This document shows, one piece after another, positions 3,001-9,000 of a DNA stretch of 64,000 bases (position 1 is its first letter; every line of letters starts with the position of its first letter). The position numbers were made by a program. The stretch is from a virus. The stretch lies in IMG/VR virus record IMGVR_UViG_3300027319_000001. One strand, written 5' to 3'.

Positions 3001-6000
3001 GCCCCATGCGTGCCAGCACGTTCGCCGAGATTGAGAAGGTGATCCGTCGGCGCGTCCGTCGCCGCGAGCTCGAGCATGAGCGTCGCGTGCAGGCCCGTGA
3101 GCGTGAGCTCGAGCGATTCGAGGCGAGGTTCCCTGGCGCGTACGCGGCGGCTGAGCGTGAGATTGAGCAGCCCCGCACTGGTTTTACCGCTGACGTCGCC
3201 CGAAAGATACTCGCGCTGAAGGCGACTGATCGTCAGGTGGAGGCGTTTATGAGCGTCATTTCGGAGCTTGACGCTCGGGACGCTGAGCGTCAAGCTGCGT
3301 ATGACGCCATGCCCGACATTGAGGAGGGGCGTCGTGAGATTACCGGCGTCATTCTCTCCGTGAAATGGGATGAATTCGCGTACCCTAATGGCGCGTTTAA
3401 ATGGCTAATTCAGCTGCCTACCGGAAACAAGGTTTACGGGCGCGTCCCGGAAGCGCTGGTCGGGAACATTAACAAGGGCGATACAGTGCGTTTCACTGCC
3501 ACTGTGGAGCGTTCGAACAAGGACGCCAAGTTCGGCATTCTCAAGCGACCCAGCAATGCGGAGATTATCGCGCGTGCCGAGTCTGAGGTCGAACCTGAGG
3601 TTACGGCGGTTGCGGAGGATCCTAAGCCCATTGAGGAGGGTCGTCAGATAATTAGGGGGGAGGTGATGCACACCTGGTTCAGCCCCTCCCCTGATGAACA
3701 GGGTCCTGAGGACAGCGCATATTGCTGGCACATCCGGGACACGTACGGCCGTGTGTATTCCGGCCGCATCCCAAAGGCGCTCGCGAATCGCGTCAGGCCT
3801 GGTGAGCGTGTTGAGATTGCAGCCAAGGTCTCGGCTGTTCCGGGCGCGGATGCGTGGTTCGGCGTGCTGAGCAGCACATGGGTGATGATGAGGGTTATCA
3901 ACTGATTAGGGGGCGGTGACGCACCCCTGGTTCAGCCCCCTCCCCTGAAAACAGGGGAGGGGGACCATCCCCAATAGGAGGATGCAATGCGATATGTCAC
4001 CATCGTGACTCGCTACTGGGACGCGGGAGCATGTCTCCGAGCAGACATGGTGCGGCATGATGAGGCGATGCTCATGCGGCGCGCTGAGGAGATAGGCGCT
4101 GTAGGACGCTGGGCACTCGCAATGGCTGCAGCCGACCTCCTAATTCAGGTCGGTGCTACTCGCCGTAGCGAGGACACCGTCTACAACGCGGAAAAAAGGG
4201 CCGCAATTGACGGCGCTGTGGTTACTCGAACCGCCACCCTGCGGGATTTTTCCCCGCTGGAGCTGATTGCAATTCACCACCAGATCGTGCGTCGTAGCAC
4301 CCCTGCTAAGTGAGCCAAGGAAATCGGGAGAATCAATGGACACACCTACCATCCTGTACCACGGCACAGCAGCGAGACTTCGCCCGGGCAGCCTCATTCG
4401 CCCCGGTCGCAAGCCCAATTTTGGTGGCGATTATGTGGACAGAGACGGGCGTTCCGTCTACGTCTACGCGACCATTGATCCTGATACCGCCTACTGGTAT
4501 GCGGAGATGGCGGCAAAACTGGGCGGCAGGCGTTTTGGGTACGTATACGAGGTGACGGCTACCGGAGAGCTGCTGCCCGATCGCCAGGAATGGGATTTCA
4601 AATCGGCATCCCCGTTGAGGGTTATCGGAATTCATCAGTGCATCGATCTGGGTCCCAGGGTGCGCAGGTCATCCATTGAGCGGCTGTTTGGTCTGTAATC
4701 TGGTGCGATTTAGGAATCGCACTCAGCCCTTGCGATTCCTAAATTAGGAAGCTACGATCAGGGCGAGAGTCAGGGGATAGGGCCCCAGACCATAACAAGG
4801 AGGCACCAAAATGATTGTCACCACCATCACTGGCTCTATCGACCTCGCGGAGATTCTCAATTCCGCGCCTCTCACTGAGGCTGACGCCGCCGACACCCCG
4901 CGCGACTGGGAGAGTATCTGGGTTGGCGGTACCGAGTATCCGCTGTCGCAGGAAGAGACAACCGACAACTTCGTGGTGCTTGCCGACGGCACCGCCGCCG
5001 TCAGGTACTCCCCTGAGGGCGAGCGATGTTGGGGTGAGCACCACCGCACCGCCGTGGAAAGCTTGGCTGGGCACTGGTGCCCGGCCGATTTGGAGCGGTG
5101 GACCAGGGATGATGAAAACTGCGGGGTGGAGAGGGACTGCCGCCGGGTTTACGTCTGGGATGCCAACGGGTATTGCGAGTCCACTGTCTACCCAACCGTT
5201 TCGGCCGCCAAGGCGGCTTTCCAGAGGGAGGTCGAGTACCTCGACAGCCTCGACTGAGAAAACCCTGATGCCGCGTGTTGCGGTGCACAGGCCCCAGACC
5301 ATACCTAGGAGGAACGAATGATCACCACCAGCTACGGCACCTGGACCAGCCGAGTCGACCCCTACTCCCTCTCTGTCGAGCAGACCGTGAGGGAGGCCCT
5401 CGGTGACTACGCGGACCAGTATGACGTTGACGCCATCGCCGCCGACTACCGGCGTGCCATTAACGAGGCCCTGCCCGAGGGCGTGTCCCTGTGCGGTGAC
5501 GAGTTCATCGGCCCCTACTACGACTCTGACGCCACCTGGGGTCCCGAGCTGGAGGTGGACGGCAGACTCAACATCCGCGCGATCGTCGAAAGCGTGGATT
5601 TTTGGGGGATCGTCGCCAAGCACGAGACCGACTGATCCTCCCCCATACCACGGCCCCCGGCCCCAGGCCGGGGGCTTTTCCTTGGAGCCACCATGAAGGA
5701 CGTCGTCAGGGCTGACCGTCCGTACGTCACCCTTGTTACCGCGTTTTGAGGCGCTGTTTCATGTAGCCATCCGCCAGCACGCCTCCTGCAAGCCATGCAG
5801 GCGGCTTTTTTTGTGCACCAAAAACTGGTGGCAACAATTTCGGGAAAAATCGGGGGGCGCAAATAATCAATTAACAATAATCCAAACATATATAGGTATG
5901 AGATATGCCTGTGACCGTTAGCTGGGTGTTTGCAACTGTTAAACATGGGGGTCTAGGGTTTGCTGGACGTTTGCTATAGCAAACATGCATGCCGACTGTG

Positions 6001-9000
6001 ATCATGACGCGTAGTAAGTTTTCGAACTGACGTATTGACTTGGGGTGGGGAGGTGGGGACAGATTTTCATGATCGCGAGTGCGACAGTGGCCGGTTTGTC
6101 AAGGGTGTTGGCGACAAATCACATATGTGTACAAGATCGGTGACGCTCTGTCGCAGAGAAAGTCGGCCGGTTTGGAGGTCTGGTGCACATACAAAACCGC
6201 AGGTCAGAGCGCTGTATGAACGCGTGCTTAGTTCTCCGGAACTATCCCTGTGGTGTATTTGTGCAGGTCAGCGCATTATCCGCGTATGAATAACGTACGG
6301 ATCTGCACGGAACCGATTTTCCCGCTTTGTCCGTATCTCTTAGCGTGACCGATCGATGATTTTGCGTGTCTGTTGTAGGGGTCGTACAAATTTCGATTCG
6401 TGTCTTGACTGTTACCGCAACGTGATATACGGCACCCCCCACCCTTAAACGATCTTGCCCAAAAAACGACCGCCAGTATTCACACGTTGAAAATGGGCTG
6501 ACAGCAATGACAGTGGCCGGGGGTTAGCAGGCCAGGCCTCAGGGGTTTGCAAGCAACAGACAGTGGCAGGGCCTGGGGGTTAGCAGCGCAGGTCAGAGGG
6601 CGTTTGCAGTTAAAAAATGGAGAAAAAATCAAAAAATCATTTATTTTCTTGGCTCTACAACGATTTTTTACAAAAATCGGAGCTCCACAGACGGTGTGAA
6701 AAATAGGAAAAAATAGGAAAAATAAGTGAGAAAAATCAGAAAAATCGGCTGAAGCACTATGTTCCAGCATCACGGCTCTGACTGACGATCATGTCATCGT
6801 GTCTGTGTAGAGCGTGAACTCGAGAATTGGATCTTTGTTCTGGACAGGGCTGCGGAAGCCTACAGGCATGCATCCGGGGGAGGGGGGTTAGGCGTATCGT
6901 CCGATGACCTGCGAAAACTCCGGGATAAGATCATCCTCCGGGATAAGATCATCGAAACGGCCGTCGCCGTGATCCGGTTGAAGCCCGCGTGTGGTTCGGT
7001 TATAGTTCGTTTTACCTCTCGTGCTACCTCAAGGTTCCTCAGTCAACCCTCAAAGCTCCTCAGTCAACACGCACCAGTAGCACCCAGCCGGGGACAGGCA
7101 AGTGAAGGGCGGGGACTTCTGTCCCCGCCCTTCTGCTTACATGATCGCGCTGGACGCGCTAGTATGTAATTGCAATCGTCCGACGACTCAGCACGTTAGA
7201 GTCCTCTTACACTTATTGAACGGGGCGCAGGGGTGCGGCAGATGTCGCACCCCTGCTTCATTGCATAGGCGTTCCAAGACGGCTAGAGTGTGTGTCGGAC
7301 CACAGCGGTTCGACACCGTCTGGACGACTACACAGCGGGGGCGAGGTTGCCTGATACCTCGCCCCCGTTTGGTTGCGCAAAGGTCTTTGATGACATGCGC
7401 TTCTCCGTATAGGCAAGGGAGATGGCTTGAACCCTACGAAGTTCCACTATGGGTGGCTTCTGGTGCGGTTCGACGATGAGGGGAACATCGTCGACATGCG
7501 CCGCAAGACAGGATTCCCCACGCAAAAGTTCGCGGCTGCGGACATTCAGGTCGTACTCGATACGACCATCAGCAAGCACTATTCTGCGTTGCCTGAGGAA
7601 GGGCAGCTGGCATAGACTCAGCTCACCGCCGACAGGTGGTGGTACAACTCATCGTCACTCTTTTCGATCCTTGGAGGGTCGGGTTGAAACACACCCGACC
7701 CTCCTGTATGCTGCTCTCGCCATCGAATGTGATGGCAAGCCGCCTTAGGAGAGGGCAGTAGATTCCGCACTATTGGCCTGCACGGGGAAGGGGCGCGGTA
7801 AACGACCGCGCCCCTTCTTCGGTATTGATCGACTTGTGGCTGTACGACTTCGTGTTCGTTTCCCACGTACTCGCTTCTCGTTTCGCTGTGGTGGACGAAT
7901 GCGAAGAAGGGAAGAGCTGCACTGGAGAGGACGGATGATCGACGACGTCAAGTACGTGCTCGCGCGGCTTGTCGAGTCAGGGTGGGATCAGATCAGATCG
8001 TTCAAGATTAAGAACGGCTACCTGATCTACGGTGAGCGGGGATGTTTCTTCGTCGAGTGCGAGATTTTCGACGGGTCTACGGTCGACTGCGCGCTCGTGC
8101 ATCTCGACAGCGGTCAGTTGGTCGATCTGTCGTTCGAGGAGTTCGACGCGCTGATCCAGAAGTCGCGGAAGGAACTTGGCCGGTTCTGGGCTGCGCAGCG
8201 CGGCCGCTTTGCGGAACTCTCCGAGTCGATTCGCGCCGTCACCGAGGCTGAGTATGTGGAGCGGTACGTGCCGAAGCTGGCGCGGGCGGGATGGCTGGTG
8301 AGGACCGCCAGGCTCGCCAACGGCGGGTACGAGATCGCCGCTTTCAAGGACTATTGGCGGTACCACGTCGAGCTGAAGACCACCTCCCCCAGAGGCGGTG
8401 TTCTGCCGCTGATCGTCGAGCACGAGGAGGGCCGTCGGCTCGGGGTCCCGCTGTACCGGTGGGAGGAGCTGATCGGACAGGGGTTGGACGAGTTCGACGA
8501 GTACTGGGAGGCACACGCCGCCGAGGCCAGCAAACAGACAGAGGGGTGAGGCTCCCGGTTGTCACGAAGGTGAAGCCGTACTAGACTGGAGGCACCTCGG
8601 AAGGATCGGAGGGGGCGAGCGTATGCTCGCCCCCTCTTTGTGTCCTCAGGTTTTTCAAGATTACTGCGTCATGGGTGTGCAACCGTCGCGCACTCGCGTG
8701 AAAAATGTAGTAGCATCTAAGCCACAGACACCACCAAGCCACAGGGGCTGGCGAAACCTTGATCGCTGTCGGGGCTATCGCACACCTGTCACCCAGGGCG
8801 CATTCTCATAGACACACGTATCGGTGCCGCCGCGTCCTGGATAGGCGCGGCTGTTTTGTTTCGGGAGCAGTTATGGAAACGATCACAACCAGCCAGCACA
8901 GGTGCGCTGAACTTCTCCGGGAGCTGGATTTCCGGGGGGTGAATAGTCGGCATGGGGAAGTCTACGACGGCTGCTATTACGTCATCGTCGATCTCGGCCG

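What the first reader, a model, noticed from the sequence alone, without database searches (positions are those of the whole stretch)
5680..7420. 1.7-kb region with no credible ORF, packed with iteron-like repeats, phased A-tracts and tandem duplications
No ORF here has an RBS or plausible composition, and the DNA is visibly less GC-rich than its surroundings. It contains:
- a terminator-closed unit of about 100 nt (5700-5812);
- GTTTGC motifs at 5928, 5958, 6545 and 6602, plus the perfect palindrome GTTTGCTATAGCAAAC (5969-84);
- the 12-mer GACAGTGGCCGG at 6083 and 6509;
- two tandem units of about 50 nt (6509-6612);
- about 145 nt of A-tracts phased roughly every 10 nt, with AAAAATCGG three times (5845, 6672, 6740);
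- a perfect 18-nt tandem duplication (6918-53);
- a 21-nt tandem repeat (7028-69);
- G-run clusters (6044-60 and 6875-90);
- three strong hairpins (7104, 7227, 7336).

This combination is typical of an origin, a partition or packaging site, or a nucleoprotein-assembly platform. The AT-rich curved block would also be a natural target for the phage's own Lsr2-like protein.
Basis: seen in the sequence. Interest (0 to 1): 0.7.

Follow-up and report, generated by a model that had tools for sequence, protein, structure and literature searches.

The report
Conserved gene-free repeat region in phage
A 2.3-kb stretch of an uncultivated Streptomyces-type temperate phage really carries no genes and is a conserved, repeat- and A-tract-rich DNA platform (probably where proteins dock for DNA packaging or early control) followed by a variable block of terminator hairpins; it is an ordinary kind of phage control region, and its exact job is still unproven.

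Summary
Window 5636-7426 shows no codon-phase signal, is the GC minimum of the window, and every listed repeat and hairpin is present and non-random.

The region has two parts:
- Part A (5636-6925) is kept at 93% identity in the only relatives found. Its centre (5900-6500) is kept at 96%, against 77-95% at third codon positions of flanking genes. It has no excess RNA folding. It carries 9 of the window's 32 GTTWGC boxes, two tandem 50-56-nt units and the least stable DNA of the 64 kb, a phased A-tract block.
- In one lineage four boxes changed together, GTTTGC to GCTTGC, on both arms of the palindrome. That argues for protein-read DNA sites.
- Part B (6926-7907) holds tandem duplications, five strong hairpins and a 62-aa ORF. 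It is partly or wholly missing in close relatives.

The phage has a separate lambda-like origin signature inside its initiator-like gene at 60.97-61.13 kb, so this region is probably not the main origin.

My best guess (about 0.35) is that Part A is the chromosome-end, packaging and early-control region, by analogy with BRock-group phages, which share the terminase (56-57%). The rivals are an auxiliary origin or centromere, or a transcriptional control platform.

Interest is modest.

The parts
5652..5676 (+). Intrinsic terminator that closes the upstream rightward gene block. The stem has 11 pairs and is followed by TTTTCC.
   Evidence: invariant in relatives
5694..5750 (+). Mini-ORF of 18 codons (MKDVVRADRPYVTLVTAF) with a GGAG ribosome-binding site 5 nt upstream.
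   Evidence: Sequence. Relatives carry a 3-nt indel and several substitutions but keep the frame and the stop. Whether it codes is not proven.
5785..5812 (+). Second terminator hairpin followed by T7.
   Evidence: the stem is kept in relatives
5815..5910 (.). AT-rich tract (about 35% GC) holding the first AAAAATCGG. It is the third least stable 100-nt window of the 64 kb.
5917..5990 (+). Box cluster I. It holds GTTAGC at 5917, GTTTGC at 5928 and 5958, and the perfect palindrome GTTTGCTATAGCAAAC at 5969-5984. CTAGGG at 5953-5958 abuts the box at 5958.
   Evidence: The boxes at 5958, 5969 and 5979(-) change to GCTTGC in the L012 lineage, a compensatory change on both palindrome arms.
6012..6026 (+). 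TAGTAAGTTTTCGAA. It resembles the sequence just after the terminal repeat in Alone3 and GiJojo (TAGTTTT(T/C)CGAA) and in BRock (TAGTAAT).
   Evidence: The motif composite was defined post hoc; the expected count is about 0.02-0.04 per shuffled window.
6035..6059 (+). TTGACT hexamer followed by the G-run cluster GGGGTGGGGAGGTGGGG.
   Evidence: unique in the window
6083..6118 (+). First copy of GACAGTGGCCGG, followed by the inverted repeat TTTGTC-N12-GACAAA.
6195..6295 (+). Two related segments, each with GCAGGTCAG(A)GCGC and then TATGAA.
   Evidence: (families D4 and D7)
6290..6500 (.). Most conserved core. It includes a 74-nt invariant run, the promoter-like TTGACT-15-TGATATACG at 6405-6431, and the C-run CACCCCCCACCC at 6433-6444.
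   Evidence: Identity over the core is 97% to the L012 lineage (6 differences across 6300-6499); 6200-6399 is identical to L002.
6505..6612 (+). Two tandem units of 50-56 nt. Each reads GACAGTGGC, then GGTTAGCAG, then CAGG.CAG, then GTTTGCA. The four GTTWGC boxes are spaced 22, 34 and 23 nt apart.
   Evidence: (families D2 and D3). The box at 6545 also changes to GCTTGC in the L012 lineage.
6612..6750 (+). Phased A-tract block of about 30% GC, with repeated AAAAAT(N)GG units. It is the least stable DNA of the whole window. One 10-nt unit is missing in L002.
6751..6925 (.). Less conserved right flank of Part A, with the G-run cluster at 6875-6890.
6918..6953 (+). Perfect 18-nt tandem duplication. 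It sits exactly at the point where relatives stop being collinear with the window.
6926..7907 (+). Part B, a variable insert. In the L012 lineage it is absent and about 69 nt stand in its place. In L002, window 6933-7568 is replaced by about 40 nt.
6978..7006 (+). Sigma-70-like promoter match, TTGAAG-17-TATAGT. Weaker matches with the same 17-nt spacing lie at 7137-7165 and 7260-7288.
   Evidence: The two weaker sites were read by eye and are not statistically supported.
7027..7068 (+). 21-nt tandem repeat, two copies, 90% identical.
7104..7133 (+). Hairpin 1, with a perfect 13-bp stem.
7227..7256 (+). Hairpin 2, with a 14-bp stem and one mismatch.
7336..7367 (+). Hairpin 3, with a perfect 12-bp stem followed by TTTGGTT.
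7427..7615 (+). 62-aa ORF with coding-like GC phase. Its first 48 codons are absent from L002 and from the L012 lineage, so it is accessory.
7673..7704 (+). Hairpin 4, with a 12-bp stem. L002 carries a compensatory change from T:A to C:G.
7787..7817 (+). Hairpin 5, with a 13-bp stem followed by TTCGGTATT.

Best explanation
The stretch is a gene-free, cis-acting control region of a temperate actinophage, built from two modules.

**Part A (5636-6925)**
- It works as double-stranded DNA that proteins bind.
- Two clusters of GTTWGC boxes, one of them a perfect 16-bp palindrome, flank a highly conserved core of about 500 bp.
- The second cluster sits in two tandem units that abut an intrinsically bent, easily melted A-tract block.
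- I propose that this is the phage's chromosome-end and packaging-recognition region. A phage-encoded DNA-binding protein, most simply the terminase recognition subunit, would load on the boxes. The bent block would help wrap the DNA. The concatemer would be cut here to give short terminal repeats.
- The same end would enter the cell first and carry the start of rightward early transcription.

**Part B (6926-7907)**
- It is a lineage-specific insert of promoter-like elements and strong intrinsic-terminator hairpins. These act either as an insulator or as small transcription units.

**What is shown**
- The region is non-coding and conserved, has no RNA-structure signal in Part A, and carries clustered boxes that changed in concert.
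- The A-tracts are phased, and the hairpins in Part B are real.

**What is inferred**
- That the boxes are bound by protein, which protein that is, and the packaging or chromosome-end role.
For: **Non-coding and constrained**
- There is no codon-phase signal.
- Substitutions in the longest internal ORF are spread evenly over codon positions, by my count.
- Indels break the other long ORFs.
- Part A is 93.1% identical to the L012 lineage, and 5900-6500 is 95.8% identical. Third codon positions of flanking genes are 77-95% identical.

**Acts as DNA rather than as structured RNA**
- Fold z-scores in Part A run from about -1.7 to +2.6 on both strands.
- There is no Rfam hit and no tRNA.

**The boxes look functional**
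- 9 of the 32 GTTWGC copies in 64 kb lie within 690 nt.
- Four of them, including both palindrome arms, switch from GTTTGC to GCTTGC in the L012 lineage. Two copies 590 nt apart share the further change GGGTTTGC to GTGCTTGC.

**Bent, meltable block**
-.

**Other cis sites are already accounted for elsewhere**
- An origin-like site lies inside the initiator-like gene.
- An AT-rich candidate attP lies next to the integrase gene.

**Analogy with packaging regions**
- The large terminase, with its intein removed, is 56-57% identical to those of BRock, GiJojo and Alone3.
- Those phages have exact terminal repeats of 197-221 bp (PMC7453282). The repeats lie in gene-free junctions of about 0.9-1.1 kb, far upstream of the terminase gene.
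- The GiJojo and Alone3 repeats each carry 9 TTTGC/GCAAA boxes.
- In this window that pentamer peaks at 5800-6040.
- The family's repeat boundaries read CTA|GG... and ...CCC|TAGT.
- Part A has CTA|GGG abutting a box, and TAGTAAGTTTTCGAA 56 nt further on. This composite is unique in the window and expected about 0.02-0.04 times by chance.
Against: - There is no read-level evidence for physical ends.
- Part A cannot be aligned significantly with the BRock-group junctions. The z-scores are 1.8, 0.1 and -0.6.
- The boundary motif is short. Chance CTAGGG/CCCTAG pairs occur elsewhere, for example at 15647 and 16565 inside coding DNA.
- The right-hand boundary lacks the CCC, and the L012 lineage reads CTAGTG at the left one.
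- The implied repeat of 56 nt would be unusually short.
- In GiJojo the genes flanking the ends diverge from them, whereas here both flanks are rightward.
- Other poorly coding stretches exist, at 11.5-13.5 kb and upstream of the window in L010.
- Divergence between relatives is patchy. The conservation could therefore partly reflect recent recombination rather than selection.
- The tandem units next to an AT-rich block fit an origin equally well.
Confidence: 0.35

Rival explanations
1. Part A is an auxiliary iteron-type replication origin, or a plasmid-like centromere. An unidentified phage protein would bind the GTTWGC boxes in the tandem units and melt or organise the adjacent A-tract block.
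For: - Four direct boxes are spaced 22, 34 and 23 nt apart, roughly on one face of the helix. They lie directly next to the least stable DNA of the 64 kb.
- A second box cluster lies 560 nt away.
- The boxes changed in concert, as expected for sites that co-evolve with a specificity protein.
- The copy number of a 10-nt unit varies while helical phase is kept.
Against: - The initiator-like gene (HTH_36) and the DnaC-like loader lie 54 kb away. They have their own repeats, AT-rich tract and hairpin.
- There is no DnaA-box cluster.
- No Rep, ParA or ParB domain was found in any neighbour.
- The gene just downstream is an acidic ORFan restricted to this lineage.
- There are only two tandem units, about 75% alike.
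- The phage carries an integrase, so it has no obvious need for a centromere.
- Cumulative GC skew shows no turning point here.
Confidence: 0.2
2. Part A is a transcriptional control platform for the rightward operon that starts at 7935. The boxes and the palindrome would be operators. The curved AT-rich DNA would act as an upstream activating element or as a nucleation site for a silencer of the Lsr2 or H-NS type.
For: - Part A lies between two terminators and the next gene. In the L012 lineage it ends only about 95 nt before that gene.
- A perfect 16-bp palindrome is a classic site for a dimeric repressor, and both arms changed together.
- TTGACT hexamers are conserved at 6035 and 6405.
- Part A holds the most AT-rich DNA of the window.
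Against: - 1.3 kb is far more than promoters and operators need.
- No convincing promoter is conserved just upstream of the gene. The only good consensus match lies in the dispensable Part B.
- The boxes are absent from the rest of the window, including the neighbourhood of the HTH_31 regulator gene.
- No Lsr2-like protein was found.
- In the window variant five terminator-like hairpins separate Part A from the operon.
Confidence: 0.2
3. The region encodes non-coding RNA. Part A would be a long, purine-rich, unstructured transcript or leader. Part B would be three to five small RNAs, each ended by a hairpin.
For: - All repeats face the + strand, and that strand is G- and A-rich (GC skew up to 0.29, AT skew up to 0.29).
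- Part B folds far better than shuffled sequence, with z-scores of -3 to -7.
- One of its stems carries a compensatory change.
- Promoter-like -10 elements precede the hairpins.
Against: - There is no Rfam match even at a permissive threshold.
- Part A shows no structural signal.
- Part B is dispensable in close relatives.
- The box changes at 5958 and 6545 are identical rather than complementary, which fits protein reading better than base pairing.
- Two of the three tandem promoter matches are weak.
Confidence: 0.15
4. The region is decaying, functionless DNA. It would be the remains of deleted genes or of a tRNA array such as relatives carry upstream of the terminase gene.
For: - Related BRock-group phages carry large tRNA arrays in the corresponding arm.
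- Part B comes and goes among close relatives.
- Divergence along the locus is mosaic.
Against: - The centre of Part A is at least as conserved as first and second codon positions of its neighbours.
- The repeats are oriented, clustered and highly non-random.
- The box changes are concerted.
- No tRNA-like remnant was detected.
Confidence: 0.07

Closest known systems
Terminal regions of BRock-group Streptomyces phages (BRock, GiJojo, Alone3): short exact direct terminal repeats inside a gene-free junction
   Same: - The large terminase is homologous, 56-57% identical.
- The gene-free stretch is about 1 kb, has lower GC, and lies many kb upstream of the terminase gene on the same strand block.
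- It is densely packed with short boxes of the TTTGC/GCAAA type in both orientations.
- CTA|GG and TAGT-type motifs are present.
   Different: - The sequences cannot be aligned significantly.
- The right boundary motif is incomplete.
- The flanking genes do not diverge from the region.
- Those phages are virulent, carry many tRNA genes and have about 52% GC (PMC7453282). This phage is temperate, has no tRNA gene and has about 58-62% GC.
- No A-tract block or tandem 50-nt units were seen at their ends.
- The physical ends of this phage are unknown.
Iteron origins such as lambda ori (from my own knowledge: four roughly 19-bp iterons next to an AT-rich tract, inside the O gene)
   Same: Direct repeats at helical-phase spacing lie next to bent, AT-rich, easily melted DNA.
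   Different: - The region is neither in nor beside an initiator gene.
- This phage's initiator-like gene has its own origin-like site.
- The boxes are hexamers inside two units of 50-56 nt, not arrays of 17-22-bp iterons.
- There are no DnaA boxes.
SPP1 pac site and lambda cosB (from my own knowledge: terminase small-subunit boxes on both sides of the cut site, with intrinsic or IHF-induced bends)
   Same: Two clusters of the same box flank a conserved core, and phased A-tract DNA lies beside one of them.
   Different: - The scale is several times larger: about 700 bp between the outermost boxes, against about 250 bp.
- It is not next to the terminase genes.
- No small terminase subunit was identified here.
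Left end of the T7 genome (from my own knowledge: terminal repeat, short repeat arrays, tandem early promoters, AT-rich primary origin)
   Same: A gene-free stretch combines repeat arrays, promoter-like elements and an AT-rich tract ahead of a rightward gene block.
   Different: The promoters here are weak matches and lie in the dispensable Part B. The phage is unrelated and temperate.

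Membership tests
Iteron-type replication origin | An array of three or more direct repeats bound by the initiator, at helical-phase spacing | tested here: inconclusive
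   There are four GTTWGC boxes spaced 22, 34 and 23 nt apart, but only two tandem units, about 75% alike. Binding was not testable.
Iteron-type replication origin | An adjacent AT-rich unwinding element | tested here: met
   Window 6625-6724 is the least stable 100-nt stretch of the 64 kb.
Iteron-type replication origin | Location in or next to the cognate initiator gene | tested here: not met
   The initiator-like gene is at 60643-61710 and has its own repeats. The neighbours of the region have no Rep domain.
Iteron-type replication origin | Replication actually starts there | not testable with these tools
   This needs marker-frequency sequencing or a plasmid replication assay.
BRock-group terminal repeat and packaging region | A homologous large terminase, implying the same packaging strategy | tested here: met
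   Identity is 56-57% over 435 aa.
BRock-group terminal repeat and packaging region | An exact terminal repeat defined by read starts and doubled coverage | not testable with these tools
   No reads are available. The contigs span the region without a break.
BRock-group terminal repeat and packaging region | Boundary motifs CTA|GG... and ...CCC|TAGT | tested here: inconclusive
   The left motif is present at 5953-5958. On the right, TAGTAAG at 6012 is not preceded by CCC, and the L012 lineage reads CTAGTG at the left boundary. Chance pairs occur elsewhere.
BRock-group terminal repeat and packaging region | Sequence similarity to the family's junction regions | tested here: not met
   Alignment scores are at shuffle level. 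The BRock and GiJojo junctions also cannot be aligned with each other.
Plasmid or prophage partition centromere | Adjacent parA/parB or parM/parR genes | tested here: not met
   No such domains were found in the neighbours I tested or in the precomputed annotations of L001 and L010.
Phage attachment site (attP) | Location next to the integrase gene | tested here: not met
   The integrase gene is at 19765-21036, 13 kb away. An AT-rich tract at 21062-21211 abuts it.
Structured non-coding RNA (any Rfam family, tRNA, tmRNA) | A match to a covariance model, or excess folding energy | tested here: not met
   There is no hit at gathering score and only chance-level hits at E-values up to 10. There is no tRNA. 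Fold z-scores in Part A are about 0. Only the Part B hairpins fold strongly.
Type III toxin-antitoxin RNA repeats or CRISPR-like array | Tandem RNA repeats directly upstream of a ToxN-like gene, or a repeat-spacer layout | tested here: not met
   The neighbours have no PADLOC or Pfam hit. There are only two units, similar over their whole length.

The most novel reading that the evidence does not exclude
Part A is a previously undescribed cis-acting element whose GTTWGC boxes co-evolve with an unknown phage-encoded DNA-binding protein. The GTTTGC-to-GCTTGC switch would then mark distinct specificity types, whether of packaging, incompatibility or immunity, within one uncultivated actinophage lineage. 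Alternatively, Part A is a second replicon or centromere carried by a phage that also has an integrase.
Probability: 0.15. Interest if true: 0.55.

Novelty: new member of a known kind. Interest (0 to 1): 0.35.

Why it matters
- If Part A marks the chromosome ends and packaging signals, it would fix the genome map of an uncultivated lineage of temperate actinophages. It would also extend the short-terminal-repeat packaging mode of the BRock group to a temperate phage.
- The concerted change of the boxes offers a natural pair of specificity variants for finding the protein that reads them.
- Otherwise this is the kind of gene-free control region that many large phages carry. No long-standing question depends on it.

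Tried and rejected
**Searches that found nothing**
- Megablast and blastn of 5600-7500 against the phage and plasmid collections.
- Megablast of 28-52 kb against phages.
- Rfam at gathering and at permissive thresholds, and tRNA search.
- The pattern GACAGTGGCNGG...GACAGTGGCNGG in viral contigs gave only a chance simple repeat, L011.
- The palindrome pattern in viral contigs gave nothing.
- A 20-mer from the invariant core found one further L012-type contig (L025) and two chance hits in metagenomes, and nothing in GTDB genomes.
- Protein-based searches of viral contigs with the 205-aa, 204-aa and 517-aa neighbours gave nothing.

**Neighbouring genes**
- More distant homologues of the upstream 105-aa gene lie in other contexts and have no gap after them.
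- The 204-aa gene is an ORFan restricted to this lineage.
- Two exact-protein look-ups failed.
- PADLOC, Pfam and PHROGs scans of the neighbours told me nothing about function.

**Ideas rejected**
- A DnaA-box cluster.
- Coding by the 84-aa ORF at 6035-6289: substitutions are spread evenly over codon positions and there is no ribosome-binding site.
- Dispersed copies of Part A or Part B elsewhere in the genome.
- The CTAGGG/CCCTAG pair at 15647 and 16565 as chromosome ends: it lies in coding DNA.
- Homology of the sequence after the putative repeat with the GiJojo, Alone3 or BRock junctions.
- An Lsr2-like gene in the window: none was found by motif search.

**Literature**
- The searches gave only the BRock genome announcement as useful.

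Full report
**Source and setting**

- The window is part of a 96,963-bp metagenome contig, ENA ERZ795404 NODE_111.
- It is phage DNA of about 55-65% GC throughout.
- It encodes a tyrosine integrase (19765-21036, minus strand).
- Its large terminase (23470-26142) is split by an intein that carries a LAGLIDADG domain.
- It has an SPP1-type portal (29521-31245).
- It also has an initiator-like gene (HTH_36) followed by an IstB/DnaC-like loader at 60.6-62.4 kb.
- The nearest described phages are the Streptomyces phages BRock, GiJojo, Alone3 and LuckySocke. The portal is about 59-60% identical and the terminase 56-57% identical to theirs.
- Gene order is shared with GiJojo only from the MazG-like gene (16128) to the terminase.

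Yes.
- GC by codon phase is flat from about 5640 to 7420, while both flanks show a clear phase signal.
- GC falls to 0.43-0.54 here.
- All listed repeats, hairpins and duplications are present.

They are also more than chance would give.
- Six of the 19 GTTTGC copies in the window, and nine of the 32 GTTWGC copies, lie within 690 nt.
- GACAGTGGC, GCAGGTCAG, GGTTAGCAG and AAAAATCGG are all on the + strand. GGTTAGCAG and AAAAATCGG occur nowhere else in the window. GACAGTGGC has 3 of its 6 copies here and GCAGGTCAG has 3 of its 4.
- A-tract phasing at 10.5-11 nt exceeds all 2000 shuffles.
- The stretch 7005-7385 folds with a z-score of -7.0.

Three corrections are needed.
- An 18-codon mini-ORF (5694-5750) has a GGAG ribosome-binding site and keeps its frame in relatives.
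- The gene-poor stretch continues to 7934, with two more hairpins and a 62-aa ORF.
- The two tandem units are only about 75% alike.

**Relatives split the region into two modules**

- Exact-protein look-ups and one homology search recovered the only relatives available.
- They form three variants: the window type (also L003), L002, and the L012 lineage (L012-L015 and L025).
- No copy exists in the phage, plasmid, IMG/VR or GTDB collections.
- Part A (5636-6925) is collinear in all variants.
- Part B (6926-7907) is absent from the L012 lineage.
- In L002, window 6933-7568 is replaced by about 40 nt.
- The break falls exactly at the perfect 18-nt duplication.
- Part B is therefore a dispensable insert.

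**Part A is constrained and is not coding**

- It is 93.1% identical to the L012 lineage, and 5900-6500 is 95.8% identical.
- Flanking genes are 77-95% identical at third codon positions and 88-99% at first and second positions.
- Divergence along the locus is patchy. This is suggestive of selection rather than proof.
- Substitutions in the longest internal ORF fall evenly on the three codon positions, by my count.
- Indels break the other long ORFs.

**Part A acts as DNA rather than as folded RNA**

- Fold z-scores across 5800-6920 lie between about -1.7 and +2.6 on both strands. Part B reaches -3 to -5.
- Rfam and tRNA searches are empty.

The strongest functional clue comes from alignment A1.
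- In the L012 lineage the boxes at 5958, 5969, 5979(-) and 6545 all read GCTTGC instead of GTTTGC.
- The palindrome GTTTGCTATAGCAAAC therefore becomes GCTTGCTATAGCAAGC.
- The copies at 5958 and 6545, which are 590 nt apart, share the two-base change GGGTTTGC to GTGCTTGC.
- At about 7% overall divergence, four identical hits at the same motif position are very unlikely by chance. My estimate is on the order of 1e-4 or less.
- This points to sites read by one factor, or to gene conversion among the sites.

The boxes in the tandem units are spaced 22, 34 and 23 nt apart and adjoin the A-tract block. That block is the least stable 100 nt of the whole window.

**Which cis function?**

The main replication origin is probably elsewhere.
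- Inside the initiator-like gene lie two 25-nt repeats, a perfect 12-nt inverted repeat, an AT-rich tract and a perfect hairpin, all within 60968-61130.
- That site is the second least stable DNA of the window.
- Part A has no DnaA-box cluster.

An attP candidate abuts the integrase gene.

No partition, replication or defence domain was found in the neighbours. These are small ORFans, apart from a homologue of Arr ADP-ribosyltransferase.

That leaves the packaging or chromosome-end site unassigned. The comparison with the BRock group runs as follows.
- BRock has a 221-bp direct terminal repeat (PMC7453282). I recovered 197-bp repeats from the GiJojo and Alone3 records.
- In all three phages the repeat lies in a gene-free junction of about 0.9-1.1 kb, some 24 kb upstream of the terminase gene.
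- In all three it is bounded by CTA|GG... and ...CCC|TAGT.
- In GiJojo and Alone3 it carries nine TTTGC/GCAAA boxes.
- In this window that pentamer peaks at 5800-6040.
- CTA|GGG abuts the box at 5958, and TAGTAAGTTTTCGAA follows 56 nt later. The composite is unique in the window and expected about 0.02-0.04 times per shuffled window.

The analogy has clear limits.
- The motif composite was defined post hoc.
- The alignments are not significant.
- Similar hexamer pairs occur by chance in coding DNA.
- The orientation of the flanking genes differs.

I therefore rate the chromosome-end and packaging reading at about 0.35. It is ahead of an auxiliary origin or centromere (0.2), a transcriptional control platform (0.2) and non-coding RNA (0.15). 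Junk DNA is unlikely (0.07).

**Part B**

- It has five GC-rich hairpins with stems of 12-14 bp, at 7104, 7227, 7336, 7673 and 7787.
- Their tails are T-richer on the + strand.
- Hairpin 4 shows a compensatory change from T:A to C:G in L002.
- One good promoter match (6978-7006) and two weak ones that I read by eye precede the first three hairpins.
- The simplest reading is a set of intrinsic terminators, possibly with small transcription units between them, acquired by the window lineage.

**Verdict**

- The finding is real and correctly described.
- The reading as a nucleoprotein platform is reasonable.
- The kind of element is familiar in large phages, the sequence is new, and the function needs read mapping or experiments.

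Noticed in passing
window 60968-61130 (inside ORF 60643-61710): A lambda-like origin signature lies inside the HTH_36 initiator-like gene. It consists of two 25-nt direct repeats (60968 and 61043), a perfect 12-nt inverted repeat (60974-61000), the AT-rich tract CATATATAGATAGTTATATATCTTT, and a perfect hairpin at 61104-61130. A DnaC/IstB-like loader gene follows.
   Followed up: partly
window 23470-26142: The large terminase is interrupted by an intein with a LAGLIDADG homing-endonuclease domain. GiJojo's terminase aligns only to residues 32-98 and 455-889.
   Followed up: partly
window 21062-21211: An AT-rich tract (GC 0.39) lies directly upstream of the integrase gene (19765-21036, minus strand). 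It is the fourth least stable DNA of the window and a likely attP.
   Followed up: no
window 11546-13558: A second poorly coding, hairpin-rich stretch. It holds terminator-like hairpins near 11697, 11964 and 13420, a long inverted repeat with 18-nt arms at about 12968-13035, and the CTAG-rich palindrome GTCCCCTAGCCTAGGGGAC at about 13365.
   Followed up: no
window 1-2300 and L010 upstream: Tandemly duplicated paralogous gene modules. Window 1-130 matches 1000-1129 at 99%, and 128-729 matches 1703-2292 at 73%.
   Followed up: no
window 5318-5635; loci L016, L021, L022; protein P0046: The 105-aa gene just upstream of the finding belongs to a widespread actinophage family. In other contigs it is followed by an Aca2-like HTH gene. 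In an Actinomadura protein it is fused to a Phd/YefM-like N-terminus. It may be an anti-defence or antitoxin-related gene.
   Followed up: partly
window 14021-15642: A Streptomyces WhiJ-type trio sits on the phage: an HATPase_c_2-like gene on the minus strand, an HTH_31/DUF5753 regulator gene (14591-15442), and a DUF397 gene.
   Followed up: no
window 4336-4698: A homologue of rifampin ADP-ribosyltransferase (Pfam Arr-ms) lies among the small genes upstream of the finding.
   Followed up: no
L009, L023, L028-L031 (GiJojo, Alone3, BRock ends): The short terminal repeats of all three BRock-group phages are bounded by the same motifs...CTA|GG... on the left and ...CCC|TAGT... on the right. The two motifs are reverse complements of each other, which suggests a shared terminase cut site.
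   Followed up: partly
L010 3388-4345 (about 4 kb upstream of the window start): A divergent gene-poor region lies between leftward and rightward genes. It holds a direct repeat GCGCTTCCATGGGTGACTGT (two copies) and a good TTGACA-type promoter. It is another candidate control region of the same phage.
   Followed up: no
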